Assembly (NCBI GenBank): GCA_964016885.1
Contig: OZ024743.1
Span: forward strand, 255,998,001-256,062,000
DNA length: 64,000 bases
DNA from: Eledone cirrhosa
Lineage: Eukaryota
Reading direction: 5' to 3'
The stretch's first letter is position 1, and each line of letters opens with the position of its first letter. Under the pieces are notes generated by a model. That model ran no database searches. It saw only the letters and a program-made list of their open reading frames with translations, and was not told the origin of the DNA. Below are positions 3,001 to 24,339 of the stretch, in pieces. The translations under genes were made by a program, and so were the position numbers.

Positions 3001-3351
3001 AGCTTCCAGTAACCGGGTCCCTGTCTATGCGTTCTGTCAAGGTTGACCATGCAGCTCACTAAATTGTGGTCTGAATAGCCAACCATGCTCATTCTTGGAC
3101 AACTTAAAAAGTGCTTAACCTTATTTCTAACTAAGAACCTATCTAGGTACAACCTGGATGATCCCCTGAGATTTGCCCAAGTCCAGGTTGGCGCAGTCGG
3201 AAAATCTATTCGATATATATCGGCCTGGTCAAATCGACCGATTAACCCTTTGAGGCTATTACACCCCTCTCTATCGGGACAGGCCCCTACGTAGTCCCAG
3301 CGTGCATCTAGGATACCATTCCAGTCCCCCACTAATAGCAAGGAGCGGGAC
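61..3351 (-). mobile_element. Tx1-like element E1, 5'-truncated within the APE endonuclease; frameshifted ORF2 331-3351
   Basis: GDWN and YSDH (APE), LDQSKAFDRVDH, RQGCPLSP, AYADD (RT), CPRC...ETVAHALVHC zinc finger; 3'UTR with AATAAA. Confidence 0.95.

Positions 3352-3384: not shown

Positions 3385-3430
<46 letters not shown>
3352..3430. repeat. (GATA)n spacer between E1 and E2
   Basis: About 20 GATA units. Confidence 0.98.
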
Positions 3431-3432
<2 letters not shown>

Positions 3433-3731
3433 TGTTTCTTTATTAGCCACAGGGTCACAAAAGAAGGGGACAAATACAAAAGTGGAAGTTTACATACAAT
3501 AAAAACGTGTAAAATATTATCACAAATGCAATTAAAAAAATTAGTCGATTTTCCCCAATAGGGGGAGACATTTCATATGGTAAACACATACCCCCGAAAA
3601 AATGTGCAACCCTCATCTCCAGGAGTACGAAGAGTTTGTACTCCTTTCCTCTCCTCCTCCTTTTCCTCAACCTACAGGCTGATATAGAGATAAGGCACAT
3701 TCACTCGGGCCATTCTCGCCACTTTCACCCA
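3431..3731 (-). mobile_element. Tx1-like element E2, ~300-bp 3' end
   Basis: WVKVARMARVN-YISL* plus 3'UTR; GATA runs on both sides (3352-3430, 3732-3757). Confidence 0.9.
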
Positions 3732-3992
3732 TATAGATAGATAGATAGATAGATAGATTTCTTTATTAGCCACAAGGGTGCAACAAGAAAAGGGGACAAT
3801 ACAAAGACATGCCGGGGATTGTACATACAGACGTGTAAAAAATATAAAAACAAACAATTTCAACAATCGAAATCCCCAATAGGGGGGAGGCGCCACAAAT
3901 GAGTTGTTTAATACCCCGTCGATAGAACAACCCTCAACTCAAGGAGCGTGTTGTGCAAGTGCTCCCTTCCTCCTTTTGCTCTCTTCCTCAAC

Positions 3993-6900
3993 CTACAGGC
4001 TTATAAACAGAGAAGGCCCAATCACTCGGGCCATTTTCGCTTCATTCACCCACCTTTCAGTAAATTTACTGGGGTGCAGTGCCTCTCACTCCACCCTGAT
4101 TCTCCTTCTAAATTGATACTTAAAGAAGGGAATCAATTGTTGTCCGGAGAGAGAGGCATCTGTCCTCAGTCCTCTCAACCTCGTCCACCATATAACTTCT
4201 TTCACCATAGCCACCGTACAGAGGAAAACCGCCTTTCTTTCGTTTTTGAAAGAGTCTGGCGGTTTGATCCTTACTATGGACTCGGCAGTCAACTGTATTT
4301 GTCCCATACGCGACAGCAGTTGTTCTGCATAGTTCCACAGGTCGCTTACGCCCGGGCAGTGTACAATTGCGTGCAGAACTGTTTCAATGTCCTGCGCACA
4401 TCTTGGACACGTCCTCTTGGAAGGATCCCTGCCAGGGCGTCCGTGCCTGTAGATCTTGTCACGAACCGGTAGAGCTCCTCGGTAGCACTGCCAGGCCAGG
4501 GACCTCTGGAAGTTGTCCATGGGTCCCGGGCGGAAAGTCCTACCAACAGACTGGTAAGCTCATCGTCTTCGATGCCCAGAGTCTCTCCGAGCACGTCGTC
4601 GCCCTTGTAACGTACAATCCCTCTAAAGAATGTCGAAGTGGAGTCTCCACTGATTGCTGCGCCCGTTTGCCAGAGGGCTGTGAGCGCCTGAGCGCATTCA
4701 ATGTGCCAGGCGCCCATCGCTTTCGGTCTTTTCTTCACCCAGGACTGCAGCTCCGTTAGCGAGACGAGCTGTGGGAAAGCCTGTCTCACAAACGGTGCCC
4801 ACACCGGTTGGGGGTCGGTGAGGAATACTTGGAGATGCCGCAGCCTCAGCGCATGTTTGCGCATCATCAGCCACGGCATTCCCAGCCCTCCGTTGGAAGG
4901 GTGCTGATAGTAGACGGATCTCCTCACCAGCGGAGCCTGCTTCTTCCACAGAAACTGGAAGAGCATGCGTTCCATCTTGGCGAGGTGTTCACGGGGACAA
5001 GGCACGACAGTCAAGCGGTAGTAGATGACGGACGCTATGAAAGTGTTCGCCACCTCCGCTCGACCTTTCAAGGACAGTTTGCACTCTGCCCACTTCTGAG
5101 TGAGTGCAAACACCTTGGCCGTGACCTCGTTCCAGTTTTTCTCCACCTGGAGGTCTGGACCGAACCAGACCCCGAGCAATTTCACCGGTCCGTCCGTCCA
5201 GCGTCCAACGACGCTGTCGGATGTCATCGGTTTGCCTCTCCACGTACCAAGTTGCAAACCGACAGACTTGTCTGGGTTTAGTTTTGCTCCCGTCAGCGTT
5301 TCGTATTCTTTCAGTATGTTGCCGATCACCCCGATTTCCGAGGTGCTCGACACCATTACTGTCACGTCGTCGGCATAAGCCGACGCCGCTTTGCGCACTC
5401 CCGGTTCTAGTGAGATGCCCTGCAACAGCTCCATTTTCCGCAGTAGTGGCTCTCGAGTCAATACATACAGAATGGAGGAGAGAGGGCATCCCTATCGAAT
5501 GGAACGCGTGATTGCGAACGGCTCCGATAGGTAGCCGTTCACCTTGACCCTCGAGCAGATGCTGGTGTGCATCGCCTCGGTCCATCCTCTGAACACGGGA
5601 CCGAAACCGGCCGCCTTGAGAACCGCTTCCAAGTATCGATGGTCGACCCTATCGAATGCCTTAGACTGATCCAAGTTGATCAGAGCCCCACCGAAGCCGG
5701 GTTTACTACCCACCCTCTCTATGATGTATCGCAGGAGGTGGAGGTTGTCGTGTATGGACCTGGTCGGGATTGCACACGTTTGCGCTTTCCCTACCAAGTT
5801 CTCGACGACAAGCGCCAACCTCGTCGCTAGCACCTTGGCCAAAATCTTTAACTCTGTGTTGAGCAGAGTTATGGGCCTGAAGTTGTTAATTACGTCCCCC
5901 TTGTTCTCGTCTTTCCTGATCAACGTTACTACGCCCTTGCCTGCAGAACTGGGAATTCTCCCGTTCTGCTGCCAATTGCAGTAGACGGCTTCGAGGACGC
6001 CAAAGAACAAGTCCGGCATGCCTATGTAAAATTCGTAGGGTAGACCATCTAGACCGGGTGACTTGCGTTTCCCGCAGCGGCCCAGAGCGTCCCGTATCTC
6101 AGTGTCCGTGATCGGTCTTTCGCAGAACTCGGCGTCTGTGTTCGAGAGACGCAGCAGGCCGTCGAGGTATGAACTAAAGTCCATTGCCCCGTTCGGCTCA
6201 CCGTCGTTCTGCTCAAACAGTCGCGCAAAGTGCCGCTGAAAGGCCGCGCACATTTGCTTGGGGTCAAGTAGCACGCGTCCGTTTTGGTCTTTCAAAGACC
6301 GAATCGTGGACTTGTTGCCACTTTTTGCCTCCGCCACTCGGGCTCAGCTGACAGCTTTCGCTCCTTCGTTTCCTAGTGCACGTGTTTTGCTTCTGACCAC
6401 GCAGCCTTCGTGTTTCGCATCGAAGAACTGGCCCAGTGCCGTTCTCGACGCTAACACTCTAGCCGCGTTGCCACTTCTAAGTGCCTCCTCTACCTTGGCT
6501 ACTAGTTCTCTTTCTATTCTGTTTTTCTCTAAGGCTAACTCTCTGCTATACCCTATCGATTCTATTCTAATTGCTTTCTTGAGAGAGTACCACCATCTAT
6601 TGTTGACGATGGCTCCCGTTAACTGTTGCTTGACTAGTCTACTTATCCGTTCACTGTAAGCTTTACGTGCCGGCAACGACACGTTCAGCTTCCAGTATCC
6701 GGGACCCTGTCTATGTATTCTATCACGGTTGACTAAGCAGACGACTAACTTGTGATCTGAATAGGCAACCAGGTGCATTCGTGGACACCTTAACATATCC
6801 TTGTCCCTTTCTCTAATGAAGAACCTATCTAAATACGATCTAGATGTCCCACTGCGGTTTGCCCACGTCCACTGTGGTGCAGTCGGGAAATCCAGTCGAT

Positions 6901-7438
6901 ACCTATCGGCCAGTTGGAATTGGCCGATTAAAGTTTTGAGGCTGTTGCACCCCGCTCTACTGGGACATGCTCCCACATAGTCCCATCGTGCATCTAGGAT
7001 ACCATTCCAGTCCCCCACTAAAAGTAAGGAGCGAGACGTTCCCAGAAAAGACTCTAGACGCTTAAAGAAGTCTGGCCGTGATTGCGATTGCCCGGTCGGG
7101 GCATAAACGGCCACCAGTCTGAAGGCTCCACCTCCGATACTGTTCACGTCTAGGACTACCAGTCTACCCTCCGGGTCCAAGTGTACTTGCTGTACTCCGA
7201 CGTCCAGGTTCTTCCGAAACATAACAGCCACTCCACCTCCACCTCCTGGCTGACAGAGAGATGCGTAGATCTCAAAGTCGTCGAAGATGGGGGTTAGTTG
7301 CTGCCTGTTGTGGATTCTGGACTCGGTGATGGCTATCACATCCATACTGTGTGAACTAAGGTCGTTTAAAAGTTAGCCCTGTTTCCAGGACATCCCTAGG
7401 CCACGCACATTCACGGTTCCAACTCGTAAACCAGCCAT
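3993..7438 (-). pseudogene. E3 ORF2: APE endonuclease-reverse transcriptase-C-terminal zinc finger, disrupted
   Basis: ATG at 7438 (MAGLRVGTVNVRGL); collinear ORF pieces 6344-7345, 5492-6337, 4346-5461, 4086-4520. Confidence 0.93.
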
Positions 7439-7479
7439 GTTGGTGAAGAAAAGTTGGAGAAAAAGGACGAAAGGTGCAC

Positions 7480-9357
7480 TTACCTTTTCGTTTCCTGGAG
7501 ATCGGGTTGTTCAATCTCCATTTGGGTGCTGGATGGGGTGTTGGGTGGGTGGGGAAACCTTTCAACAGGACGCGGTTGATGGGTTTGCGGCAGGGGTTGC
7601 CCACGTCCTGTGAAAATTTAATTTTCAGGTCTTTATAGGTTTCCATAGAAACCCTTATAAGTTTAAGGTGTGGAGACGATTCTGCCTTGACGAAAGTTTT
7701 GCCCTCCGTCTCCACCTTGGGGTTTTGGGAGATGACCTCCATCAAATTCTTGTTGTTTGTGTTGATGTTTGCGTATTGTTGTTTGTGTTTTTGTTGTACT
7801 GTTTTAGTTTGTTGTTCATCCGGGAGTTTTCTTTTTATGGTGGGTGCTTGTGTTTGGGGTGGTGTTGGTGCTGGTTTTGCTGATAGGGGGATGTTTGACT
7901 GTGGTGTTGTTTGTGTTGTTGTTTGTGTCTGTGGTTGTGTGTTGGTGTTGGTGATTGGAGTTTTGGGGGTTTTGTGGTGTCTCTTTTTTTGTTTTTTGGA
8001 TTTCCGCGGTTCTCCCTCTTCTTCACTTAAAGAAGGAGAAGCAGCTTCATCCGTCGATGAATAATCATCGTCAGGTGTGTGGGGTAAGGGTATGTTGTGT
8101 GGTGGTGGTGGTGTTTCGGTATGTGTGTTTGTGGTAGTGTTTGATGGAGTGGGATGGAGTGGGGATGTGTTCTTCAGGGGTGTTGTCTCTGTTTTTTCTG
8201 TTGTTGTTGGTTGAGTGTCTGTTTGTTTTGGTGTGGTTGCTCGTTTCGTCTGTCGTTGTACTTGTGGTGGTGGTGGTGGTTGTTTTGGTGTTGGTGTTGG
8301 TAATAGCGTTTTTTTTATGATGTTGTTGTTGTGTGTTTGTGGACAAGAGGCTTTTAGGTGAGATGTGCTACCAAAGCGAAAGCAGTGAAATTTTCGTCCT
8401 TCTACCGAAATGTTTATTTTGTTGTTATTATCAATAACGACTCTTTCGGGTATTTTGGAGATTCTCTCCGGTTTCATTTGCAACAGAATCTCCAAATCGG
8501 TGCCCGCCCACCTTTGTCGAATGGATTTTCGTATCGAAAGTATTATGTCTGTTTCTGGCTCTACGAAGCCAGCCAAGATTCACCAGATGTTAATGCTTGG
8601 AGGTATGTTTTTTATTTTTATTTTTTGTGTCCTTTTCCCCATGTATGTAGGGAAAAAATGTATGCTTTTGACACTATTGGTGTCAAAGAGTTTTTTTGGG
8701 CGAGTGCCTCGCTTTTAAACAGTACGGAAACACTTCCGTACTGTTTTCCTCGCTGGAGAAAATCGACATTTCCTAGAATCTCCTTGAAAGAATCTTCTAT
8801 ATCTGCTTGATTAACAAATGTCGGTTTTCTTGACGAATTTGACATAGTCCTAAAAGTGACTGATCGGCGGTTTGTGTCTTCCTTTATTTCAAGGGGTGAG
8901 TTAATTCTAAACGCACCTCTTTCTTCGAAAGTTACAAATTTTCTCCCTTGCTGGAGCATATCTCTTGCGTTGGAGATATCAAGATTTATAAAATCTTGTT
9001 TCTTGTTGACTGTGTCAGCGAAAGACATTTTCTTTTTTTGTGTGATGTTGTTGTTGATAATGATGTTATCGTTGTTGGAAATGTTATGTGTAGATGTATC
9101 TGTAGAGTTGTTGATGTATTTTTCATGTGTATGTATGTCAATGGGTTTTTTTGCTGTGTTTTCCTGTGTGTTATTGTCATTTTTCTCCGCTTCGGCGGTA
9201 GAAGTTGTAAAATTTTCAAATGTTGATATATTTTTTCTTTTGTGACAGTTGTATCTATGGCAACGTCCATAGCAGCAGAAGCAGATATAACGTTAATATC
9301 TGCCTCTTTCTCTCTCTTTTCTCTATTAACGTTCTCCAACGTTCTAGCGTTGCTCAA
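7480..9357 (-). pseudogene. E3 ORF1, gag-like with degenerate CCHC knuckle; start uncertain
   Basis: Pieces 8986-9357, 8618-9028, 7356-8576 are homologous to E5/E6 ORF1; HCFRFGSTSHLKASCP. Confidence 0.85.
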
Positions 9358-9572
9358 GTTTTTTACTTTGTAAAATCTGATATTTTAAAACAATTTTTTT
9401 AAAATAAAATGTTCGCCCCTACAGGGGCGAAAAATGGGATTACCACCCAGCTGACAATTCAGCTTGGGGGTTAATCTACAAAGTGTTGTATTTTTCAAAC
9501 AATTAGATCGGTTTTTTGCATAGAAATTAACAAAAAACTTACCGGCGATATTCCACACGTCAGACAGAAAGA

Positions 9573-9573
9573 G

Positions 9574-9632
<59 letters not shown>
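9573..9632. repeat. (GATA)n spacer between E3 and E4
   Basis: About 15 GATA units. Confidence 0.98.
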
Positions 9633-9634
<2 letters not shown>

Positions 9635-10662
9635 TGTTTCTTTTATTTGCCACTAGGGCATCAAAAGTGGGACAAGTACAAAGGGGGGAGTTTACACAAA
9701 AAGGCGTCCTCAATAAGGAGGAGGCAATAACAAAATATAAAAATAAAATAAGATATAACAAAAAATAAAATTTTTAACAAAATCCTCAATAGAGAGGAGG
9801 CGCCTTGGGGGGTCGCACACACCCCCGAAAAAAGTGTGCAACCCTTCTCCTCCGGAGCACAGAGAAGGGGTGCTCCCTTGGTCTTTCATCTTCGTCACCT
9901 ATAGTCTGATGTAGAGTGAAGGCCCATTCACACGGGCCATTCTCGCCACTTTCACCCATCTTTCATAGAAACGGCTGGGGTGCAGCACCTCTCTCTCCAT
10001 CCTGATCCTTCTTCCGAAATGATATCGGAAGAAACGGACCAGTTGTTGGCCAGAGAGAAAGGTGCCTGACCTCAGTCCTTTCAGACGCGTCCACCATACA
10101 ACCTCTTTCGCCATGGATATTACGCACAGAAACACCGCCTCTGCTTCATCTTTGAAGGGGGGAGGCGGCTTGATCATTACAATAGACTCGGTGGTCAACC
10201 GGATCGGTCCCACCCTTGACAGCAGTTGTTCGACATAGCCCCACAGATCGGCTGCGCCCGAGCAGTGTACCAATGCGTGTGCAACGGTTTCCTCGTCGCA
10301 CACGCATCTGGGACAGATCTTTTTGGCGGGGTCCCTACCCGGGCGCCCGTGTCTGTAGAGCCTTTCTCGAACGGGTAAAGCCCCTCGGTAGCACTGCCAG
10401 GCCAGGGACTTCTGGAAGTTCTCCATAGGTCCCGGGCTGAATGTCCTACCGAACAGGCTGGCCAGTTCGTCCTCCTCCATGTCTAGGGCTTCTCCGAGGG
10501 CGTCGTCGCACCTGCTGCGTACCAGCCCTCTATAGAATGTTGCGGTGGAGTCTCCACTGATAACCGGATCCGCCTGCCAGAGGGCGGTGAGCGCCTGGGC
10601 ACACTCAGTGTGCCAGGCGCCCAGTTTTCTCGGTCTTTGCTTGACCCAGGATTGCAGCTCGG

Positions 10663-10663
<1 letters not shown>
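9633..10663 (-). mobile_element. Tx1-like element E4, 5'-truncated (~1 kb)
   Basis: ORF2 C-terminus 9899-10663 plus 3'UTR. Confidence 0.95.

Positions 10664-10715
<52 letters not shown>
10664..10715. repeat. (GATA)n spacer between E4 and E5
   Basis: About 13 GATA units. Confidence 0.98.
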
Positions 10716-10929
10716 TTCTTTATTTACCATAAAGGCATAAAAAGAAGGGACAAATACAAAGGGGGAGTTTACATACAATCGAGTAAAAAGGGTATAAAAT
10801 GAAAATAATCGAAAATAACCTCAAAAGGGAGGGGACGTGATGGGGGTTGCACACACCCCCGAAAAAGTGTGCAATCCTTTGCCCAGGGAGCACATGGAGA
10901 AGGTGCTCCCCTCTCCTTCACTTCTTTAC

Positions 10930-13900
10930 CTACAGGATGGTATACAGAGAAGGCCCATTTACACGAGCCATTCTCGCCACTATCACCCACCTTTCATAAA
11001 ACTGCCTGTGGCCAAGCACCTCTCTCTCCATTCTTATCCTTCTTCCGAAGTGATATCGGAAGAAGTAGACCAGACTATGGCCAGAGAGGAAGTTGCCTGA
11101 CCTCAGACCTTTCAATCGTGTCCACCAAACAACCTCTTTCAACATGGCTATTACGCACAGAAAAACCGCCTTTGCTTCCTTTGTGAAGAGGGGAGGCGGT
11201 TTGATTGTCATCACGGACTCGGCGGTCAATTGAATCGGCGCCACCCGCGACAGAAGTCGTTCGGCGTAGCCCCACAGATCAGCCACGCCCGGACATTGCA
11301 CCAATGCGTGCGCAACGGTTTCTTCGTGACGCACGCATCTAGGGCAAATCTTTTTTGAAGGATCCCTGCCCGGGCGCCCATGTCTGTAGAGCCTCTCTCG
11401 AACGGGTAGAGCCCCCCCGGTAGCACTGCCAGGCTAGTGACTTCTGGAAGTTGTCCATTGGTCCCGGGCCGAAAGTCCTACCGAACAGGCTGGCTAGTTC
11501 GTCCTCTTCCATGTCCAGCGACTCTCCAAGGGTGTCATCGCCCCTGCTAGCCACCAGCCCTCTATAGAATGATGAGGTGGATTCTCCACCGATGGCCTGG
11601 CCCGCTTGCCAGAGAGCCCTGAGCGCCTGAGCACACTCAGTGTGCCAGTCTCCCAGTTTTCCGGATCTTTGCTTGACCCAGGACTGCAGCTCGGTGAGCG
11701 AGACGAGTCTCGGGAAGGCTCGTTTCACGAACGGAGCCCACACCGGTTGACCAGTGAGGAATACCTGTAGGTGCCGTAGCCTTAATGCGTGCCTACACAT
11801 CATCAACCACGGCATCCCCAGCCCTCCTTTCGAACGTTGTTGGCAGCAGATGGATCTTCTCACCATAGGAGGGCGTTTCTTCCAAAGAAATTGGAAGAGC
11901 ATGCGTTCCATGTTGGTGAGTGTTTCCTTAGGGCAAGGCACGACAGTCAGGCGGTAGTAAGTGACGGACGCTATGTAAATGTTCGCCACCTCCGCCCGGC
12001 CTTTTAGGGACAGCTTACACTTGGCCCATTTCTGGGTTAGTGCAAACACCTTGTTCGTAACCTCGTCCCAGTTCTTTTCCACCTGGAGGTCCGATCCAAA
12101 CCAGACCCCAAGCAACTTTACCGGGCCCTCCGTCCAGTGTCCGACGACACCGTCGGGAGGCATCGGTCTGCCTCTCCACGTTCCGAGTTGCAGCCCGATG
12201 GATTTTTCCCGGTTCAGTTTCGCTCCTGACAACCTTTCGTAATCCTCCAGTAAGGTACTGATCGCCTCGATTTCCGAGTCGGTCGATACCATTACTGTTA
12301 CGTCATCGGCGTAGGCCGACACCGCTTTGCTCAATCCTGGTTCCAGGGGGATATCCTGCAACAACTCTAACTTCCTCAGTAAAGGCTCGAGAGTCAATAC
12401 GTACAGAAGGGAGGAGAGAAGGCACCCCTGTCGAATGGATCGTATGATTTCGAACGGCTTCGAAAGGTAGCCGTTCACCTTGATCCTAGAACAGATGTGG
12501 TTGCTATGTAAGGCAGTGATCCAGCCTCTGAAAACAGGACCGAAGCCAGCCGCCGCTAGCACCGCATCCAGGTAACCATGGTCGACCCTATCGAAGGCCT
12601 TAGATTGATCCAAGTTGATCAGGGCCCCACCGAAGCCGGGTTTGTTGCCAACAATCTCTATGATGTATCGCATGAGGTGGAGGTTATCGTGAATGGACCT
12701 GGATGTGATAGCACATGTCTGCGCATCTCCCACCAGGCTACCCACGACAAGCGCCAACCTCTTTGCTAACACCTTGCCCAAAATCTTTAACTCTGTGTTT
12801 AGCAGGGTTATGGGCCGAAAATTATTTATACTATCCCCCTTGTTCTCGTCCTTCCTCACCAGCGAGACTACGCCCTTGGCTACAGAACAAGGAATTCTCC
12901 CGTTCTGCTGCCAATTGCAGTAGACCGCTTCGAGGAGTTCGGAGAAGAAGACCGGCATTGCTAAATAAAGTTCGTCAGGTATACCATCGAGACCTGGAGA
13001 TTTGCGTCTGCTGCATTGGTTCAGCGCATCTCCGATCTCATCAGCCGATATTGGTCCCTCGCAGGACTCTGCCTCTTCGCTCGAGAGACGCGGCAGGCCG
13101 TCGAGGTATGGACCGAAATCCACGTCCTCGCCCGGACCCTCGCCTCCCCCGAATAATCGGCAAAGTGTCTTTGAAAGGCCTCGCACATCTGCTTAGGCTC
13201 CCGGATCACCCGTTCATCGTCGTCTTGCAACGACCGGATGGTGGATCGATTTCCACTCTTAGCTTCTGTCACGCGGGCCCAGCCAACGGCTTTGGCCCCC
13301 TCATTACCTAGAGCACGTATTTTACTTCGAATGACGCAGCCTTCGTGCTTTGCATCGAAAAACTGGTTCAAGGCCGTCCTCGATGCCAGCACTCTGGCCA
13401 CATCTTCGCTCTTGATTGCCTCTTCTAATTTACCTGTTAATTCTTTCTCGTTTCTATTCCTATCGGCAGCTAACATCTTGCTATAACTTATTGATTCTGT
13501 TCTAATCTCTCTTTTGAGAGATGCCCACCATCGGTTGTTGACGATTGCACCCGTCAACCTCTCCTTAACTAATCTGCTAATCCGGTTTCTGTAAGTCTCT
13601 TTTGCCGGTAAAGACAAATTAAGTTTCCAGTAACCGGGACCCTGTTTATGTGTTTTCTCGAGATTGACTACGCAGGTCACTAATTTGTGATCCGTATAGC
13701 CAACCGTGCGCATTTCTGGACAGCTTAATATGTTCCTATCCTTACTTCTAACTAAGAATCTATCTAAGTACGATCTAGATTGACCACTGTGGTTTCTCCA
13801 AGTCCAGGTAGGCACAGTTGGAAAATCTAGTCGATATCTATCGACCAAGTTAAAACGGTCGAGTAACCCCTTGAGGCTGTTACACCCCCCTCTATTAGGA

Positions 13901-14367
13901 CATGCTCCTGCATAGTCCCAACGTGCATCTAGGATGTCATTCCAATCCCCCGCTAGAAGCAGGGAACGCGACGTTCCCAGAAAAGTCTCCAAACGCTGGA
14001 AGAAGTCGGGCCGTTCAGCTCCGAAAGGGGAGTAGACGGTGACCAGTCTCAAGGCCGCACCTTCACTACTGCCAACGTCTAGCACCAACAAACGACCCTC
14101 CGGGTCCGAGTGAACATCCTGTACGGCAAGACCCAGGTGTTTTTGTAGCAGTACGACAACCCCACCCCCACCTCCAGGTTGACAGAGAGATGCATGCACC
14201 TCAAAGTCATGGAAGGTAGGGGTCAGCTGCCGCACGACGCTGATCCGAGTCTCACAGATAACCATTACATTTATACCACATGACCTGAGGTCATTTAGAA
14301 GCTTTGCTTGCTTCCAAGTTGAGCCCAGGCCACGTGCATTCAAACATCCTACTCTTAACACATCCAT
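10930..14367 (-). pseudogene. E5 ORF2 (APE-RT-zinc finger), frameshifted
   Basis: ORF pieces 13021-14367, 11339-13186, 10930-11334. Confidence 0.93.
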
Positions 14368-14400
14368 GTGGGCGGCAGAGCCAAAGGAGAGTGTAGAGAC

Positions 14401-16311
14401 CTACCTTTCTGCTTCCCGGGGTTCGGGTCGCACGACTTCCATGGGGTCGGGGCTGTTGCGTGAAGGGGTGTCTTGTGGTGGTGTGGGGTCGTCAGTGTGT
14501 GGTGGGGTTGGGGTGTTTGGAGTTGAGTTGGGGAGGGGAAGGGGAGGGGGAAATATTTTTAGTAGGACGCGGTTTATGGGTTTGACAGAGGGTGGTCCTA
14601 CGTCCTCCTTAAAATCCTTTTTTAGTTTTTGGTAGAGGTTCATTGGGATCTTTATTAATTTTAAATGTGGGTAGTTTTCTGAAGAAACAAAGTTTACACC
14701 TTCGGTTTGTACCGAAGAATTATTGTTTATGAGTTCATTTAATTTATTATTGTTTCTGTTGATGTAAGTATAGTGTAATGTCTTTTTTTCGGATGGTGTG
14801 AGTGTTTCGAAGAGGGGAGGGGCAGGTTTGGTTTTGTTTGTTGCTGGAGGGGTTTTTTGTGTTTTGTTGGATTGTGTTGACATTTGGGTGGGGGTTGTTT
14901 GGCCTTGTGTGTTTTGCACATGTTTTCTTTTTTTTCCTTTTAATCTGTCTGAAGGACTCCGTTACTTCCTCCGAATTCGTTGGGTCATCTTCAGTGTTGG
15001 AGGGAAGAGGCATGTTTGCTGGTAATGTTTCCGTGTTGGTTTTCTTTGTGGGGGAGATGGATGTCACTATGTTAGACTGTGTTGTGTGTTGTGGCAGCGG
15101 TGGTTGTGTTGTTTTATTGAGTGAGGGGTTGGGTGGGCCTGTATTTTGTTTTGGGGTAATGTGTTGTGACTGTTTGTGTTGTGGTGGTGGTGTAGTTTTA
15201 CTGAGGGACGGGTTGGGTGGGACTGAGTTTTGTTGTTTGTTTATCTGTTGTGGTGGTGGTGGTGGAGCTGGTGTTGGTAGCAGGGTTTTCTTTTTGTTGA
15301 GTTGGGGACAAGCGGCCTTCACGTGCCCTCTGCCTGCACAGATATGACAGGACGGCCTTCTCCCCTCTACGCTAATGTTTATATACCCGTAGCCCTCTAA
15401 TAGGATTCTGTCGGGTATTTGGGCGATGCGTTCAGGCTTCATTTGCACTACAAGCTCTATACCTGTTCCACTGAACGCATTGCCTGTGGTTTTCCCAATG
15501 GAAATCACGTTGTCATTCACTGGATCGATGAAGCCAGCTATGAGCCAGCAGTAGTCCACATCTGGCATCATTGCATCCAGCCATATGCGTTGAGTTCTTT
15601 TACCCATATAAGATGGATAAAAGGTAAACATTTTCGAACGAATCGGTGACAAAGCACATTTTTTTGCCACCGATTCGTTCTTCATAATAATCGCTAGGCT
15701 TCCATACAGTCTGTCTTTTCTTATGAAAGTGGTTTCATTAAGTACTTCTGTAAGTACTGTTTTGATTTCTGCTTGAGTTGGCTGTTCAGGTTTTTTTGAA
15801 GTGTTGTTGATGGTGCGGAACACGACCGTTCGACTTTCAATGTCTTTGGTGAGTTCTTGAGGCATTTTACCGATAAAATACCATTCTCTCCTTCAGTTAT
15901 GTATTGTTTGGCGTCTGTGATTCTTTGTGCCATATCTGAAATATTTTCAGGTATATATGTCAAAGATTTCTTTGTTGTTTGTGCAAATCAAATCTTGTTG
16001 GTGTTGACTTTGTCGTCTGCTTTGCTTTCTGTTATGATGTTGTTTTCAGATGTTATTTTTGTGTGTGTTGTGTCTTTGTTTGTGGTATTAATATTGTCAT
16101 GCAATTTTTCAAATTTTTTTTTTTCGTTGTTGGAATCCATGTCCAGATTTGTGTTTTCGTCATTTTTCTCCGCAGATTCGTCTGTTTTTATTTTATTTTT
16201 TCCTTCCTTCTCTATGACGTTAGTTGGGAAGGAAGAGGGGACTAAAGCGTGCGAGCTTACAACTCTTACCGCTGTCCCCCCACTACTATTTTCGTTCGCT
16301 TCGTTTAACAT
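14401..16311 (-). pseudogene. E5 ORF1 with CX2CX4HX4C zinc knuckle, frameshifted
   Basis: SCHICAGRGHVKAACP in ORF 14747-15865; other pieces 15988-16311, 15721-15963, 14401-14919. Confidence 0.88.
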
Positions 16312-16538
16312 TTCTGTCAGACGATTGAAATTTTTTTTGCCACAATATTTTTAAAAACAGGTTTTTCACCCCTAGGAGGGGTAAAGATGAGCTGACCCAC
16401 CGCCTGACAGTTCAGACGGGGGGTCAAGCTACACAATAGTATCAAAATTAAATTGCACACACCCCCGAAAAAAGTGTGCAACCCTTCTCTTCAGGAGCAC
16501 AGAGAAGGGGTGCTCCCTTGGTCTTTCATCTTCCTCAC

Positions 16539-19500
16539 CTATAGTCTGATGTAGAGTGAAGGCCCATTCACACGGGCCATTCTCGCCACTTTCACCCATC
16601 TTTCATAGAAACGGCTGGGGTGCAGCACCTCTCTCTCCATCCTGATCCTTCTTCCGAAATGATATCGGAAGAAACGGACCAGTTGTTGGCCAGAGAGAAA
16701 GGTGTCTGACCTCAGTCCTTTCAGACGCGTCCACCATACAACCTCTTTCGCCATGGCTATTACGCACAGAAACACCGCCTCTCCTTCGTTTTTGAAGAGG
16801 GGAGGCGGCTTGATCGTTACAATAGACTCGGTGGTCAACCGGATCGGTCCCACCCTTGACAGCAGTTGTTCGACATAGCCCCACAGATCGGCAATGCCCG
16901 AGCAGTGTACCAATGCGTGTGCAACGGTTTCCTCGTCGCACACGCATCTGTGACAGATCTTTTTGGCGGGGTCCCTACCCGGGCGCCCGTGTCTGTAGAG
17001 CCTTTCTCGAACGGGCAGAGCCCTTCTGTAGCATTGCCAGGCCAGGGACCTCTGGAAGTTATCCATGGGTCCCGGGCTGAAAGTCCTACCGAACAGGTTG
17101 GCCAGTTCGTCTTCCTCCATGCCTAGGGCTTCTCCGAGGGTGTCGTCGCACCTGCTAACCACCAGCCCTCTATAGAATGACGAGGTGGATTCTCCACTGA
17201 CAGCCGGGTCCGCCTGCCAGAGAGCCGTGAGCGCCTGGGCACACTCGGTGTGCCAGGCGCCCAGTTTTCTCGGTCTTTGCTTGACCCAGGATTGCAGCTC
17301 GGTGAGTGAGACGAGTCTGGGAAAGGCTCGCCTCACAAACGGGGCCCACACCGGTTGACCGGAGAGGAATACCTGAAGGTGCCGTAGCCTTAAAACGTGT
17401 TTACGTATCATTAGCCACGGCATCCCCAGCCCTCCTTTCGAAGGGTGTTGACAGCAGATGGATCTCCTCACCATAGGAGCCCGCTTCTTCCAAAGGAATT
17501 GGAAGAGTGCGCGCTCCATTTTGGCGAACGTTTCCCTTGGGCAAGGCACAACGGTCAGGCGGTAGTAGATGACGGACGCTATATAAGTGTTCGCCACCTC
17601 CGCCCGACCTTTCAGGGACAGTTTGCACTCGGCCCAATTCTGGGTCAGTACAAACACCCTGTTCGTCACCTCACCCCAATTCTTCTCCACCTGGAGGTCT
17701 GGTCCGAACCAGACCCCGAGCAACTTCACCGGGCCCTCCGTCCAGCGCCCGACGACGTCATCGGAGGGCATCGATCTTCCCCTCCACGTGCCGAGTTGCA
17801 GACCGATCGACTTGTTCCGGTTCAGCTTAGCCCCTGTAAACCTTTCGTACTCCTCCAGTAAGGTGCCGATCGCCCCGATTTCCGAGGCCGTCGACACCAT
17901 TACTGTTACGTCATCGGCGTAGGCTGACATCGCTTTCCGCAATCCCGGTTCCGACGGGATGCCCTGCAACAACTCCAACTTCCGCAGCAGTGGCTCTAGA
18001 GTCATTACATACAGAAGGGAGGAGGGAGGGCACCCCTGTCGGATGGACCGCGCGATTTCGAACGGCTCCTCGAGGTAGCCGTTCACCTTGACCCTAGAGC
18101 AGATGCGGCTGCTGTGCACGGAATTGATCCAGCCCCTGAAAACGGGTCCGAAGCCTGCCGCCGCTAGCACCGCATCCAGGTAACCATGGTCGACCCTATC
18201 GAATGCCTTAGATTGATCCAAGTTTATCAGGGCCCCACCAAAGCCGGGTTCGTTCCCAACCCTCTCTATGATGTATCGCATGAGGTGTAGGTTATCGTGG
18301 ATGGACCTGGACGGGATAGCACATCTCTGCGCATCTCCCACCAGGTTGCCCACGACAAGCGCCAACCTCTTTGCTAGCACCTTGGCCAAAATCTGTAACT
18401 CTGTATTTAGCAGAGTTATGGGCCTGAAATTATTTATATTGTCCCCCCTGTTCTCGTCCGCCTCACTAGCGTGACTACGCCCTTGGTCACAGCACAGGGA
18501 ATTCTCCCGTTCTGTTGCCATTTGCAGTAGACCGCCTCGAGGAGATCGGGGAACAAGTCCGGCATAGCTAGATATAGTTCGTATGGAAGACCATCGAGAT
18601 CCGGGGATTTGCGTTTGCCGCATTGGCTCACCACGTCCTCTATCTCAGCGGCTGAAATCGGCTCCTCGCAGGACTTCGCCTCCCTGTCCGAGAGACGCGG
18701 CAGGCCGTCGAGGTATGGACCGAAGTCCACGTCCCCAACCGGCCCTCCGCCCCTTCCGAACAATCCGGCAAAGTGCTTTTGAAAAGCCCCGCACATCTGC
18801 TTAGGTTCAAGGATCACCCGTCCATCCTGGTCTCGCAAAGACCGGATAGTGGATCTGCTCCCTCTTTTGGCTTCTGTCACGCGGGCCCAGCTAACAGCTT
18901 TGGTCCCCTCGTTTCCCAGAGCACGTATTTTGCTTCGGACGATGCAGCCTTCGTGTTTCGCGTCGAAGAACTGGCTCAGGGCCGTTCTCGACGCTAGCTC
19001 TCTAGCCACGTCACCGCTTCTAATTGCCTCTTCTATACTATCTACCAACTCCCTTTCCTTCCTATTTCTATTGGAGGCTAACTCCTTACTAAATTCTATA
19101 GAGACTACTCTAATCTCTCTTTTGAGAGATCCCCCACCACCTGCTGTTGACGATGGCGCCCGTCAACCGCTCCTTAACTAAAGTGCTAATCTGGTCCCTG
19201 TAAGCCTTACTTGCCGGTAAGGACAAGTTGAGCTTCCAGAAACCGGGTCCCTGTCTATGAGTTCTGTCAAGGTTGATCATGCAGGTTACTAACTTGTGGT
19301 CTGAATAACCAACCATGCGCATTTTTGGACAACTTAAAAAGTCCTTATCCTTAATTCTAACTAAGAACCTATCTAGGTACGACCTAGATGATCCGCTACG
19401 ATTTGCCCAAGTCCAGGTTGGCGTAGTTGGAAAATCTAGTCGATATCTATCGGCCAGGTCAAATCGACCGATTAACCCTTTGAGGCTATTACACCCCTCT

Positions 19501-19976
19501 CTATCGGGACAGGCCCCTACGTAGTCCCAGCGTGCATCTAGGATACCATTCCAGTCCCCCACTAATAGCAAGGAGCGGGACGTCCCTAGAAAAGTCTCCA
19601 GACGATGGAAGAAGTCCGGCCGCATTGACCCGAAAGGTCCGTAGGCGGCTACCAACCTAAACGCTCCGCCTTTACCTCTGCCAAGATCCAGAACCACTAG
19701 TCGACCCTCCGAGTCCAAATGTACCATCTGTGTTGCGAGACCCAGATGTTTTTGCAGCAGAACGACATCTCCACCCCCACCTCCGGGCTGACAGAGAGAT
19801 GCGTGCACCTCAAAGTCATCAAAGGTGGGGGCCAGCTGTCGCACGTTGCTGATCCGGGCCTCGCAAATAACCATCACATCTATACGTTGTGACCTGAGGT
19901 CATTTAGAAGCATTGCTTGCTTCCAAGTTGAGCCCAGGCCATGCGCATTTAAACAGCCTACTCTTAGCATAGCCAT
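16539..19976 (-). pseudogene. E6 ORF2 (APE-RT-zinc finger) with two frameshifts
   Basis: ORF pieces 19110-20000, 18434-19048, 16539-18623; ATG at 19976. Confidence 0.93.
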
Positions 19977-20000
19977 GTTGGTGGTGAAGAGAAAAGGCAC

Positions 20001-21637
20001 TTACCTCTCTGCGTCCCGGGTATCGGGCTGCACAATTTCCATTAGGGTGGGGGATGGGTTGTTGGGTGGGGTGGTGGTTTGTGGAAGTGTAGGGGCATCA
20101 GTGTGTTGTGTGGTTGGGGAGCTTGAAGGTGTGTGGGTGTTTTTTTTTGGGGGGGGGTAGTTTTTTTAGGAGGACGCGGTTAATTGGCCCGACGCAGGGG
20201 GACCCACGTCCTCTTTAAAATTGTTTTTTAAAGTTTTATAGGTGTCCTGTGGGGCCTTAATCATTTTGAGGTGGGGGAAATCCCCTGCCTGGGTGAAGTT
20301 AGGCCCTTGTGTTTTTATTAGATTGTTGTTGTACACAATGTTTAACAGTTTTTTGTTTCTTGTGTTTATGTATGTGTATGCATGTTTTTGTTTTTGTGTG
20401 GTGTTTTTTGTTTGCTGTTGTTGTGAGCTCTTTTGTGTTGGTGTCAGTGTTATGTTTTGGGGAGGGGTTGTTTTCATTTGTGTGTCTGAGGTGTGTTTTC
20501 TTTTTTTTCTTTTGATTGTGTGGAAGTGCTCCTCCTCGTCTGACGACAAACTAGGGTTATCTTCCGCGTTGGAGGGGAGTGGTATATTTTCGGGTTGTGT
20601 TTGCGGTGCGGGTGTTTTGGAAATTGTTTTTGTTTTTTGAGTGGAGGGGATGGGTTGGATATTGTTTTGTTTTGGTTTGAGCTGTGGTGGTTGTTTTTGT
20701 AGTGGTAGTTGTGGTGATTGTGTTGGTTGTGCAGTTGTTGGTGGTGTAGGCAGGATTGGGGTTTTCTTATTAAGTTGGGGACAGCCCTCAGGTGACCTCT
20801 GGTTCCGCAGAGGTAACACGAGGGCCGTCTACCCTCAACGGTAATGTTGATGAAGGTTAGATCATCCAGTATGACGCGTTCAGGGATCTGGGCGATCCTT
20901 TCGGGCCTCATTTGAACTACAAGTTCGAGGCTCGTTCCACTGAACGCGTCACCCGATGCCTTTCCCATGGACACCAGCATGTCATCCTCCAGGTCCAGGA
21001 AACCTGTCAAAACCCACCATATTTCCATAATCGGCAGGATGGTGTGGATTTTTATTTTTTGTGTTCTTCTACCCATGTACGTAGGGTAGAAGGTGTATGC
21101 GGTGGATGTGATTGGTTTGATGGACAGTTTCACTGCTGTGTCCCTGTCCTTCATGACAATGGATAGACTCCCGTAGAGTCTATCCTTCTGAATGAAGGTG
21201 ATGTCCTTCATGACGTCTTTTAAAACCAGCTCTATCTCACTCTGTGATGGTTGAGCTGGTTTTTTACTTTTGTTCGAGATTGTCCTAAACATGACCGTGT
21301 TTAGGAGTCTCTGGCTTTTTAGTTCCGGGGGGGAATGGATTGTGAATGAACCATTTTCTCCGTACACTATATATTTTTTCGCATCTGCCAGTAGCTCCTT
21401 CGCTTTGGTTATATCTACTGGCAGATAGTCGAGGGTTTTCCTTGTCGTCTCGGCGAAGGAGAAATTTTGTTTGTTTGTGTTGTTGTTGTCGTTGGTGGTG
21501 TTGTTGTTATCATTGTTGTTGTTGTCACCGTTATTGGTCTTGTTGTTGTTGTTATTGTTATTGGTGTTGTTTTCGTCCGTCGCATTGTTGTTGTTGTTGC
21601 TGTTGCTGGTGCCGCTGGTTCTTTGGGTTGTTGCCAT
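20001..21637 (-). pseudogene. E6 ORF1, Asn-rich N-terminus, CCHC knuckle, frameshifted
   Basis: ORFs 20474-21664 and 20166-20819; SCYLCGTRGH; ends DAER* at 20001. Confidence 0.85.
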
Positions 21638-21646
21638 AGATAGATA

Positions 21647-21968
21647 TATTTCTTTATTAGCCACAGGGGCACAAAAGAAGGGGACAAATACAAAGGGGGA
21701 AGTTTACATACAATAAAAACGTGTAAAATGTTATCACAGATGGAATTTAAAAGTTAGTCGATTTTCCCCAATAGAGGGAGACAGTTTATATAGGTAACAC
21801 ATACCCCCGAAAGAAAATGTGCAACCCTCATCTCCAGGAGTATGAAGAGCTTGTACTCCTTTCCTCTCCTCCTCCTTTTCCTCAACCTACAGGCTGATAT
21901 AGAGAGAAGGCCCATTCACTCGGGCCATTCTCGCCACTTTCACCCACCTTTCATAAAACTTGCTGGGG
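21647..21968 (-). mobile_element. Tx1-like element E7, ~320-bp 3' end with target-site duplication
   Basis: Same subfamily as E2; flanked by direct repeat GTTGCCATAGATAGATA (21630-21646, 21968-21984). Confidence 0.9.
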
Positions 21969-21975
21969 TTGCCAT

Positions 21976-22482
21976 AGATAGATAGATAGATAGATAAATG
22001 GATAGATGGGTATGTAAGTAAAAAGAAATAGTGAGTGATAGACAGATACACTGATAGAGTAGTTTGGTAGACAGAGAGATAAGTACACAGGCAGATAGAT
22101 CCATAGGTATTTAGATAGATACATACACTGACAGAGTAGTTTGGTAGACAGAGAGATAAGTACACAGGCAGATAGATCCATAGGTATTTAGATAGATACA
22201 TAGATAAAGAGTTAGATAGACAGACAGACAGAAAGATAGGTAGCTAGGAAAGTAGGTAGATAAATAGACAAAGAGCTAGTTAGACAGACAGAAACATAGG
22301 TAGCGAGGAAAGTAGGTAGATAAATAGACAAAGAGCTAGTTAGACAGACAGAAAGATAGGTAGCTAGGAAAGTAGGTAGATAAATAGACAAAGAGCTAGT
22401 TAGACAGACAGTAATATAGGTAGCTAGGAAAGTAGGTAGATAAATAGACAAAGAGCTAGTTGGACAAACAGTAATATAGGTA
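21976..22482. repeat. (GATA)n grading into GATA-derived minisatellites (~68-bp duplication, then 60-bp unit)
   Basis: Unit TAGATAAATAGACAAAGAGCTAGTTAGACAGACAGAAAGATAGGTAGCTAGGAAAGTAGG. Confidence 0.92.
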
Positions 22483-24339
22483 TGTTTCTTTTATTTGCCA
22501 CTAGGGCATCAAAAGTGGGACAAGTACAAAGGGGGGAGTTTACACAAAAAGGCGTCCCCAATAAGGAGGAGGCAATGACAAAATATAAAAATAAAATAAA
22601 ATATAACAAAAAATAAAATTTATAACAAAATCCTCAATAGAGAGGAGGCGCCTTGGGGGGTCGCACCCCCCCCCCCCGAAAAAAGTGTGCAACCCTTTTC
22701 CTCAGGAGCACAAAGAGGGGGTGCTCCCTCGTTCCTTCCTCTTTTCCACCTACAGGCTTATGTAAAGAGAAGGCCCATTCACACGGGCCATTCTCGCCAC
22801 TTTCACCCACCTTTCATAAAAACGACTGGGGTGGAGCACCTCTCTCTCCATCCTGATCCTTCTTCCGAAATGATATCGGAAGAAACGGACCAGTTGTTGG
22901 CCAGAGAGAAAGGTGCCTGACCTCAATCCTTTCAGACGCGTCCACCATACAACCTCTTTCGCCATGGCTATTACGCACAGAAACACCGCCTCTGCTTCAT
23001 CTTTGAAGGGGGGAGGCGGCTTGATCATTACAATAGACTCGGTGCTCAACCGGATCGGTCCCACCCTTGACAGCAGTTGTTCGACATAGCCCCACAGATC
23101 GGCTACGCCCGAGCAGTGTACCAATGCGTGTGCAACGGTTTCCTCGTCGCACACGCATCTGGGACAGATCTTTTTGGCGGGGTCCCTACCCGGGCGCCCG
23201 TGTCTGTAGAGCCTTTCTCGAACGGGTAAAGCCCCTCGGTAGCACTGCTAGGCCAGGGACTTCTGGAAGTTGTCCATAGGTCCCGGGCTGAATGTCCTAC
23301 CGAACAGGCTGGCCAGTTCGTCCTCCTCCATGTCTAGGGCTTCTCCGAGGGCGTCGTCGCACCTGCTGCGTACCAGCCCTCTATAGAATGTTGCGGTGGA
23401 GTCTCCACTGATAACCGGATCCGCCTGCCAGAGGGCGGTGAGCGCCTGGGCACACTCAGTGTGCCAGGCGCCCAGTTTTCTCGGTCTTTGCTTGACCCAG
23501 GATTGCAACTCGGTGAGTGAGACGAGTCTGGGAAAGGTTCGTCTCACAAACGAGGCCCACACCGGTTGACCGGTGAGGAATACGTAGAGGTGCCGTAGCC
23601 TTAATGCGTGTTTACGCATCATTAGCCACGGCATCCCCAGCCCTCCTTTCGAAGGGTGTTGACAGCAGATGGATCTCCTCACCATAGGAGCCCGCCTCTT
23701 CCAAAGGAATTGGAAGAGTGCGCGCTCCATCTTGGTGAGGGTCTCCCTTGGGCAGGGCACTACGGTCAGGCGGTAGTAGATGACGGACGCTATGTAGGTG
23801 TTCGCCACCTCCACCCGACCTTTCAGGGATAGTTTGCAACTGGCCCACTTCTGGGTCAGTGCAAACACCCTGTTCGTAACCTCCGCCCAGTTTTTGTCCA
23901 CCTGGAGGTCCGGTCCGAACCAGACCCCGAGCAACTTCACCGGGCCCTCCGTCCAGCGTCCGACGACGCAATCGGAGGGCATCGGTCTGCCCCTCCACGT
24001 GCCGAGTTGCAAACCGATCGACTTGTCCCGGTTCAGCTTAGCCCCTGTGAACCTTTCGTACTCCTCCAGTAAGGTGCCGACCGCCTCGATTTCGGAGGCC
24101 ATCGACACCATTACTGTCACGTCATCGGCGTAGGCCGACACCGCTTTCCGCAATCCCGGTTCCAAAGGGATGCCCTGCAACAACTCCAACTTCCGCAGTA
24201 GTGGCTCGAGAGTCAACACATACAGAAGGGAGGAGAGAGGGCACCCTTGTCGGATGGACCGCGCGATTTCGAACGGCTCCGAGAGGTAGCCGTTCACCTT
24301 GACCCTAGAGCAGATGCGGCTGCTGTGCATAGCAGTGAT
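22483..24339 (-). mobile_element. Tx1-like element E8, 5'-truncated in RT, inserted in the 60-bp minisatellite
   Basis: ORFs 23248-24330 and 22750-23154 (one in-frame stop between them); minisatellite on both sides. Confidence 0.95.

What the first reader, a model, noticed from the sequence alone, without database searches (positions are those of the whole stretch)
3993..20004. ORF2 of the Tx1-like element is bracketed by conserved splice sites: whole ORF2 looks like one intron
Seen (donors): in three highly diverged subfamilies the ORF1 stop codon overlaps a 5' splice-site consensus on the element strand: E3 GAAAAG|GTAAGT (GT at 7483), E5 AGAAAG|GTAGGT (14404), E6 AGAGAG|GTAAGT (20004). The surrounding ORF1 tails and the 25-40-nt inter-ORF spacers are otherwise poorly conserved, and the spacers contain no AG downstream of the donor hexamer. 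Seen (acceptors): in all eight copies showing it, the ORF2 stop is TAG preceded by a pyrimidine-rich stretch and followed by GT and purine-rich GAAG-type sequence: CTATAG|GT at 331, 9899, 16539 and CTGTAG|GT at 3672, 3993, 10930, 21887, 22750. Inference: splicing removes ~3.5 kb (all of ORF2) and joins ORF1 to the 3'UTR. The join regenerates Arg-stop exactly in E5 (AG|G TAA) and E6 (AG|G TGA), and extends ORF1 by about 27 codons in E3. That would give an ORF1-only mRNA with a short 3'UTR plus an unspliced genomic RNA, i.e. splicing-controlled ORF1p:ORF2p ratio. Established: subgenomic gag mRNA by splicing is known for copia-type LTR elements; I do not know it as a conserved design in L1/Tx1 LINEs.
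Basis: partly seen in the sequence, partly recalled or inferred. Interest (0 to 1): 0.88.

Follow-up and report, generated by a model that had tools for sequence, protein, structure and literature searches.

The report
Jumping gene loops out its ORF2
A family of jumping genes (LINEs) keeps a splice-donor signal exactly where its first gene ends, plus two matching strands predicted to fold the whole second gene into one RNA loop; it likely uses these to cut the second gene out of some transcripts and make extra first protein, but no spliced RNA has been seen.

Summary
The motifs are at the stated coordinates. The donor at the ORF1 stop is real: it is kept in 12 of 12 sampled lineages of this genome, in three reading phases, and in a family only 40% identical in ORF2. 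The acceptor at the ORF2 stop is weaker: amino acids explain its pyrimidines, 7 of 8 window copies have a competing AG, and the most abundant sister family ends in TAA. The pyrimidine spacer and the purine run after the ORF2 stop covary as a predicted 19-34 bp duplex that loops out exactly ORF2; this partly explains the AG|GT and GAAG sequence. No precisely spliced copy was found against 3,191 and 4,826 unspliced donors, and no RNA run was available. The distant family has a clear non-coding acceptor in its 3'UTR and retains its intron-like stretch in every copy, so missing spliced copies do not refute splicing. Best reading (0.5): regulated splicing gives an ORF1-only mRNA, and the helix-closed unspliced RNA is the template. 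The scan noted this four times before in other windows of this genome; the duplex lead came from one of those notes and was tested here.

The parts
3758..9570 (-). Element E3: full-length L1/Tx1-type LINE between (TATC)n runs; both ORFs broken in this copy
7478..7486 (-). E3 donor-like site AAG|GTAAGT overlapping the ORF1 stop
7439..7477 (-). E3 pyrimidine spacer, predicted 5' strand of the long-range duplex
   Evidence: -36.1 kcal/mol with its own post-stop strand, better than all 602 other windows
3993..7438 (-). E3 ORF2 (endonuclease, RT, zinc knuckle; broken); putative intron 7483-3993
3993..4014 (-). E3 acceptor-like ORF2 end, CTGTAG|G, competing AG 7 nt upstream
3957..3992 (-). E3 purine run after the ORF2 stop, predicted 3' strand of the duplex
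9476..9542 (-). E3 5'UTR intron-like stretch, 67 nt, G|GTAAGT to TTTGTAG|
   Evidence: retained in 145 copies, precisely lost in 0
10715..16452 (-). Element E5, 5' end cut inside the 5'UTR where it meets the cut 3'UTR of E6; ORFs broken
14399..14407 (-). E5 donor-like site AAG|GTAGGT overlapping the ORF1 stop
14368..14398 (-). E5 pyrimidine spacer, predicted 5' duplex strand
10930..14367 (-). E5 ORF2 (broken); its end is the best-scoring AG of 254 in the E5-type representative
10899..10929 (-). E5 purine run after the ORF2 stop, predicted 3' duplex strand
10844..10917 (-). Two predicted 3'UTR hairpins; the first overlaps the outer end of the purine strand (positions carried over from the fold of a sister copy)
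16453..21640 (-). Element E6, 5'-truncated in ORF1, 3'UTR cut; ORFs broken
19999..20007 (-). E6 donor-like site GAG|GTAAGT overlapping the ORF1 stop
19977..19998 (-). E6 pyrimidine spacer, predicted 5' duplex strand
16539..19976 (-). E6 ORF2 (broken), ending CTATAG|G with a competing CAG 7 nt upstream
16512..16538 (-). E6 purine run after the ORF2 stop, predicted 3' duplex strand
331..3350 (-). 5'-truncated copy (ORF2 part), stop at 331
3444..3735 (-). Short 5'-truncated copy, ORF2 stop at 3672
9640..10662 (-). 5'-truncated copy, ORF2 stop at 9899
21650..21975 (-). Short 5'-truncated copy, ORF2 stop at 21887
22490..24330 (-). 5'-truncated copy, ORF2 stop at 22750
9575..9634 (-). (TATC)n run between elements; others at 3353-3432, 3736-3755, 10665-10712, 21977-21996: the likely insertion target

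Best explanation
These microsatellite-flanked LINEs keep a splice-donor sequence at the end of ORF1 and two covarying strands predicted to pair across ORF2, and they likely use regulated splicing to cut all of ORF2 out of part of their transcripts, giving an ORF1-only message. Shown: the donor, its conservation, and the covariation of spacer and post-stop run. Inferred: U1 binds the donor; the acceptor is the first usable one at or after the ORF2 end (the stop-codon AG in the (TATC)n lineage, a 3'UTR AG in other families); the junction lies at the ORF1 stop, so the spliced message would escape nonsense-mediated decay and carry a short 3'UTR. Inferred: the duplex brings both ends of ORF2 together but also covers the acceptor and often part of the donor, so an RNA that closes it would stay unspliced and serve as ORF2 message and copying template. 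The balance would set the ORF1p:ORF2p ratio.
For: Donor in 12 of 12 lineage representatives (11 GTRRGT, 1 single-copy GTATGT) while only 14 of 126 four-fold ORF2 sites are invariant among them; 98 of the first 100 listed of 9,147 ORF2 starts carry it (counted by eye); best U1 match of the element in 8 of 12; kept with TAA, TAG or TGA, in phases 0, 1 and 2, and behind unrelated ORF1 tails. Family at 40% ORF2 identity: donor 1 nt after the ORF1 stop in 34 of 34 distinct contexts; second donor at or 14 nt after the ORF2 stop and a pyrimidine tract plus TAG about 250 nt into the 3'UTR in 28 of 28; none of the 28 lacks that intron-like stretch. Duplex: own pair -25.9 vs foreign pair -20.3 kcal/mol, 0 of 20,000 permutations, and no such effect in 7 control pairings (lowest 946 of 20,000). 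ORF2-stop AG ranks 1st in 2 and within the top 8% in all 7 (TATC)n-lineage representatives (untrained score). Precedents: spliced Gag-only RNA with U1 control in Ty1/Copia (PMC5580714, passages); intron retained through transposition in Penelope (PMC2377424, passages).
Against: No spliced RNA seen. 0 precisely joined copies against 3,191 (gap-pattern control 8,920) and 4,826 unspliced donors; about 2% of full-length human L1 are spliced copies (PMC5860796, passages), though those keep ORF2 in cis. 5'UTR intron-like stretch precisely lost in 0 against 145 and 27 retained. TAG|G in only 9 of 12 lineages; rank 37 of about 260 in the two TAA families. No synonymous excess of pyrimidines. The AG|GT and GAAG run are also explained by pairing with the spacer, and a duplex between intron start and downstream exon is not the usual loop-out geometry (own knowledge). 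One 40%-identity type (L260, one locus) has no strong donor at the ORF1 stop; 1 of 19 more distant relatives has one. Joins add 70-78 codons in three lineages.
Confidence: 0.5

Rival explanations
1. U1 binds the site but little splicing follows: it would suppress poly(A) signals in the A-rich ORF1 or aid transcription, while the duplex separately throttles reinitiation at the ORF2 start or holds the 3'UTR beside it.
For: Donor conserved more tightly than any acceptor; no spliced copies; AATAAA/ATTAAA within 500 nt upstream of the donor in 11 of 12 representatives; the predicted helix puts the ORF2 start beside the ORF2 stop; U1 blocks premature termination in EVD (PMC5580714, passages).
Against: Poly(A) hexamers are dense in ORF1 anyway (up to 5.2 per kb) and rare in ORF2 downstream of the donor (0 in 5 of 12); the distant family carries a full non-coding acceptor in 28 of 28 contexts, which U1 binding alone does not need.
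Confidence: 0.25
2. The donor splices to an acceptor early in ORF2 (nt 14-19 or nt 83) or late in it (about nt 2805), removing the ORF1 stop and making an ORF1-ORF2 fusion protein.
For: In phase-2 lineages the AG ending at ORF2 nt 14 or 83 is in frame; AG at nt 83 is kept in 12 of 12; one copy, L244, is deleted from the donor to this site; the AG near 2805 has the highest mean score of the conserved AG columns and low synonymous change upstream.
Against: L244 is 1 nt off a precise join, has an AGGT microhomology and is single; a similar deletion in a sister family does not end in AG; donor phase varies 0/1/2 so the frame is not kept; nt-14 introns would be 41-55 nt and E3 lacks that AG; the nt-83 join removes the first endonuclease strand; no synonymous constraint at nt 83 (rank 210-366 of 756); the distant family's spacer is 13 nt.
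Confidence: 0.12
3. The donor splices to acceptors outside the element, such as the 5'UTR acceptor of the next copy in a head-to-tail array or a host exon, still giving an ORF1-only message.
For: Copies lie head to tail about 5.9 kb apart and several 5'UTRs carry TTTGTAG-type acceptors.
Against: Each element ends in AATAAA just before its microsatellite; the duplex partner is inside the same element; solitary copies would lack a partner.
Confidence: 0.08
4. Coincidence by descent: Arg-stop at the ORF1 end and Leu-TAG at the ORF2 end merely look like splice sites.
For: ORF1 and ORF2 C-terminal peptides are conserved; the acceptor's pyrimidines follow from them; pairing could hold AG|GT in place.
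Against: Three unconstrained positions invariant at about 0.11 each (roughly 1 in 700, sites taken as independent); motif survives phase changes and a move outside the ORF; 34 of 34 in a 40%-identity family.
Confidence: 0.05

Closest known systems
Tx1-clade target-specific LINEs (Kibi on (TC)n, Koshi on (TTC)n, crocodilian (TTCC)n/(TTTC)n families; PMC4494074, passages); L1-Tx1 families of Octopus vulgaris (13 recently active; PMC13282606, passages)
   Same: Two ORFs, APE endonuclease, RT, C-terminal zinc knuckle, CCHC-type ORF1, microsatellite flanks.
   Different: Targets here are (TATC)n and (ATT)n; the passages read mention no conserved splice donor, retained intron or duplex.
Ty1/Copia shGAG RNA of Arabidopsis EVD (PMC5580714, passages)
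   Same: Works like it: one donor, U1-dependent choice between a short structural-protein message and the unspliced full-length RNA.
   Different: LTR element; short intron plus premature poly(A). Here the proposed intron is the whole 3.5-kb ORF2 and the element's own 3' end would be kept.
Penelope-like elements (PMC2377424, passages)
   Same: Spliceosomal intron kept through transposition; 75-bp intron near the start, like the 67-nt stretch at 9476-9542.
   Different: Single ORF, GIY-YIG endonuclease; splicing shown by RT-PCR there, not here.
Human L1 SpORF2 and SpIREs (PMC2896524, PMC5860796, passages)
   Same: A LINE RNA with working splice sites.
   Different: Those splices start in the 5'UTR and remove ORF1 or promoter sequence; spliced copies are found in the genome (about 2%); here the donor is at the ORF1 stop and no precise spliced copy was found.
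HAL1 half-L1 elements (PMC5753468, passages)
   Same: ORF1 without ORF2.
   Different: HAL1 are genomic non-autonomous families; no ORF2-less family was found here.

Membership tests
L1/Tx1-type non-LTR retrotransposon | ORF2 with N-terminal APE endonuclease and RT | tested here: met
   Pfam PF03372 and PF00078; best solved relative L1 ORF2p, E 3e-50, ahead of R2
L1/Tx1-type non-LTR retrotransposon | C-terminal cysteine-rich zinc knuckle in ORF2 | tested here: met
   PF13966, E 2.8e-05, just under the curated cut-off; precomputed on close homologues
L1/Tx1-type non-LTR retrotransposon | Separate ORF1 with RNA-binding and CCHC domains | tested here: met
   CCHC motif in the sequence; Atlas look-alikes zf-CCHC and ZCCHC3-type RNA-binding, 0.90-0.92; no Pfam hit on broken window copies
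L1/Tx1-type non-LTR retrotransposon | No LTRs, frequent 5' truncation, fixed 3' end | tested here: met
   5 truncated copies in the window; 8,920 3' ends against 3,191 ORF1 ends, by different patterns
Tx1 clade (Kibi/Koshi type) | Insertion into a specific microsatellite | tested here: met
   (TATC)n flanks; (ATT)n flanks in sister families; read from examples, not counted genome-wide
Tx1 clade (Kibi/Koshi type) | RT phylogeny grouping with named Tx1 elements | not tested
Spliceosomal GT-AG intron spanning ORF2 | Consensus 5' splice site under selection | tested here: met
Spliceosomal GT-AG intron spanning ORF2 | Conserved 3' splice site with pyrimidine tract at the ORF2 stop | tested here: inconclusive
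   Top 8% in the (TATC)n lineage, weak or lost elsewhere, no synonymous excess
Spliceosomal GT-AG intron spanning ORF2 | Junction observed in RNA | not testable with these tools
   No RNA holder listed
Spliceosomal GT-AG intron spanning ORF2 | Precisely spliced genomic copies (supporting, not required) | tested here: not met
   0 found
Ty1/Copia shGAG system | LTR element with gag-pol | tested here: not met
   LINE anatomy; a likeness of mechanism only
HAL1-type ORF1-only element | Genomic family lacking ORF2 | tested here: not met

The most novel reading that the evidence does not exclude
A whole branch of L1/Tx1 LINEs encodes its enzyme gene inside a retained intron: an RNA zipper that closes start codon to stop codon decides whether ORF2 is spliced out (ORF1-only message) or kept (ORF2 message and the only template that is copied), a retrovirus-like spliced/unspliced switch kept across families only 40% identical.
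Probability: 0.4. Interest if true: 0.85.

Novelty: new variant of a known kind. Interest (0 to 1): 0.68.

Why it matters
How two-ORF LINEs make far more ORF1p than ORF2p is usually put down to rare reinitiation on one bicistronic RNA (own knowledge; see also PMC9115989, passages). A conserved donor at the ORF1 stop with a covarying duplex around ORF2 points to a different solution, by RNA processing, and gives exact junctions and paired bases to test. It would add LINEs to the retroelements that keep working introns through reverse transcription, and raise the question of how the unspliced RNA is chosen as template. With at least 9,147 ORF2 starts in this genome, nearly all behind a strong donor, it also bears on host splicing wherever copies lie in introns.

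Tried and rejected
RNA: no RNA holder listed. Four runs of unknown kind, held as contigs, were laid on E5; the 15 joints shown of 67 did not include the predicted one, 52 were not shown, so this says nothing either way; a second laying gave no result. ORF1 had no hit in the word search; the HMMER search gave 94 relatives without DNA. GTATGT as a fixed subfamily trait: rejected, one copy only. Searches used a wrong exon pattern (22 copies) and were replaced. Broader searches for any join at the donor: 2 hits, 18, 26, 46, 16, 1; all point changes, small deletions, truncations or chance hits, except L244 and one non-AG deletion; patterns with a closing D miss about a quarter of copies, and joins starting GT plus purines other than the tested ones were only partly covered. 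Circular ORF2 RNA by back-splicing: rejected, 10 of 12 spacers have no AG. A long duplex in the distant family: not supported, only a few pairs possible. In one search the rows for E3 (L070), ATTb, Fb and Fc had a mislocated frame, stop or cut locus and were left out of the join counts; Fb and Fc also out of the acceptor ranks. Not found in print in ten full-text searches (listings and abstract starts only); subscription papers and Repbase notes are not covered, and no supplements were read.


Full report
What the region is. Window 1-24,300 is a head-to-tail stack of eight LINE copies on the minus strand, most separated by (TATC)n runs. ORF2 has an APE endonuclease, RT and a zinc knuckle, with human L1 ORF2p as closest solved relative; ORF1 has a CCHC knuckle and resembles ZCCHC3-type RNA-binding proteins. 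The closest named protein is from Argonauta hians, 63% identical, so the 3.0-Gb host is probably an octopod (inference). The Tx1 label fits the anatomy and the microsatellite flanks (PMC4494074, passages) but was not tested on a tree.

Observation. Corrections: the ORF1 tails share a conserved peptide ending in Arg; the pyrimidines before the ORF2 stop are codons and are not enriched beyond the amino acids; 7 of 8 acceptors have another AG 7 nt upstream.

The donor is under selection. A pattern for ORF2 starts found 9,147 places; 98 of the 100 listed carry G|GTRRGT shortly upstream (by eye). Twelve lineage representatives, including (ATT)n-flanked sister families at 67% ORF2 protein identity, all have it (one as GTATGT, a single copy), although only 14 of 126 four-fold sites are invariant among them. 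It survives with all three stop codons, in phases 0, 1 and 2 and behind unrelated ORF1 tails. It is the best U1 match in the element in 8 of 12 (simple pairing score); the same 7-mer occurs 19 times in 60.7 kb elsewhere. A family 40% identical in ORF2 and 26% in part of ORF1 has AAG|GTAAGT one base after its ORF1 stop in 34 of 34 distinct contexts. Limits: a second 40% type (L260, one locus) lacks a strong donor there, and 1 of 19 assessable relatives at 22-32% identity has one (19 of the 55 loci had both ORFs), no more than chance.

The acceptor is less secure. TAG|G ends ORF2 in 9 of 12 lineages; two abundant (ATT)n families end in TAA and a third has TAG|T or TAG|A. With an untrained score the site ranks 1 to 20 of about 250 AGs in the 7 (TATC)n representatives and 37 in the TAA families, whose best AG lies about 155 nt into the 3'UTR. 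Joining gives a stop within 3 codons in five representatives but adds 70-78 codons in three. In the distant family the position just after the ORF2 stop is a second donor, and a non-coding pyrimidine tract plus TAG follows about 250 nt downstream in 28 of 28 contexts, varying in sequence but keeping the signal. That family therefore shows the layout donor - ORF2 - donor - acceptor, in which ORF2 lies between the first donor and the acceptor.

A duplex brackets ORF2. Following an earlier scan note (e1-8674120) I tested pairing of the spacer with the 40 nt after the ORF2 stop. In 14 representatives the own pair beat shuffles of the partner (0-6 of 200 as good). In a 12 x 12 matrix own pairs averaged -25.9 against -20.3 kcal/mol, 0 of 20,000 permutations reached it, and 7 control pairings did not show the effect (relatedness of lineages is not corrected for, but the controls share it). 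The predicted helix has 19-34 pairs, begins 1-10 nt into the donor and ends at the ORF2 start codon on one side and the stop codon on the other. The own partner is not always the best window in the element (0-28 of 547-678 other windows as good).

Search for spliced products. The predicted junction was found 0 times against 3,191 unspliced donors, also allowing a shift of about 15 nt (the gap pattern works, 8,920 hits), and 0 times against 4,826 in the (ATT)n families. Wider patterns gave one suggestive copy, L244, deleted from the donor to ORF2 nt 83-84, one base off and with microhomology. Spliced copies are thus below about 0.1% for the first set, against about 2% in human L1 (PMC5860796, passages). 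An ORF1-only RNA would need ORF2p in trans, and the distant family keeps its 3'UTR intron-like stretch in 28 of 28 contexts, as Penelope keeps its intron (PMC2377424, passages), so this lowers but does not remove the splicing model. RNA could not be examined.

Mechanism. Most likely (0.5): U1 marks the ORF1 end; part of the transcripts splice to the first usable acceptor at or beyond the ORF2 end, with the junction at the ORF1 stop so that decay is avoided (established rule, recalled); the rest close the duplex, which covers the acceptor and often part of the donor, and remain the ORF2 message and template. Shown: conservation and covariation. Inferred: U1 binding, splicing, the acceptor, the switch. 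That the acceptor is exactly the stop-codon AG in this window's families I put at about 0.35-0.4. Rivals: U1 binding without splicing plus a translational helix (0.25), fusion by a short or internal intron (0.12), acceptors outside the element (0.08), coincidence (0.05).

Comparison and novelty. It would work like the shGAG system of Ty1/Copia (PMC5580714, passages) but is not a member of it; human L1 splices differently (PMC2896524, PMC5860796, passages); HAL1 is a genomic ORF1-only form (PMC5753468, passages), not found here. The two octopus repeat papers read in passages (PMC13282606, PMC9115989) do not describe it; PMC1636488 (abstract) concerns antisense introns of TART; PMC9341512 (passages) was not informative. 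Ten full-text searches listed no report of a conserved ORF1-stop donor or an ORF2-bracketing duplex in a LINE; subscription papers and supplements were not seen. The scan itself had noted the donor four times in other windows of this genome; these are not independent evidence. Verdict: new variant of a known kind, interest 0.68.

Noticed in passing
window 9476-9542 (-); L061, L063, L067 5' ends: A 67-70 nt intron-like stretch starts about 30 nt from the 5' end in E3- and E6-type elements; the donor is weak or missing in E5-type and some (ATT)n families, present in several L261-family 5' ends. No precisely spliced copy against 145 and 27 retained.
   Followed up: partly
L261 8468-8735; L260 8460-8640: Distant families carry a complete 3'UTR intron-like stretch whose donor lies 0, 14 or 40 nt after the ORF2 stop; all 28 L261-type contexts retain it. 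These contigs are filed in a bacterial genome bin but are LINE arrays, probably host DNA.
   Followed up: partly
L244 about 1520: One E3-type copy is deleted from the donor to ORF2 nt 83-84, one base off a precise GT-AG join, with AGGT microhomology.
   Followed up: yes
L077 ORF2 codons 525-533 and 563-571: Strongest synonymous conservation in ORF2 across the 12 lineages (ratio 0.08), inside RT; an overlapping RNA signal or exchange between families.
   Followed up: no
L082-L084: One subfamily has ATA where others have the ORF2 ATG, and its ORF1 reads through the donor to a TAG that overlaps this codon (3 copies).
   Followed up: no
L081, L090, L091, L094, L095, L100 spacers: E7-type spacers end in a pyrimidine tract plus CAG 7 nt before the ORF2 ATG, a possible acceptor for a 5'UTR donor (ORF2-only message); not shared by most other families.
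   Followed up: no
window 16330-16440 and 9420-9475 (-); other families' UTRs: 5'UTRs of different families differ in sequence but appear to keep two hairpins, as do the 3'UTRs (read by eye; 3' folds).
   Followed up: partly
window 16440-16460: E6's 3'UTR is cut in its second hairpin and joined directly to the inside of E5's 5'UTR, with no microsatellite between.
   Followed up: no
window 38700-42074 (-): A different, broken LINE with endonuclease, RT and a PHD-like finger after RT.
   Followed up: no
window 24964-25170: Assembly gap of 200 N amid simple repeats.
   Followed up: no
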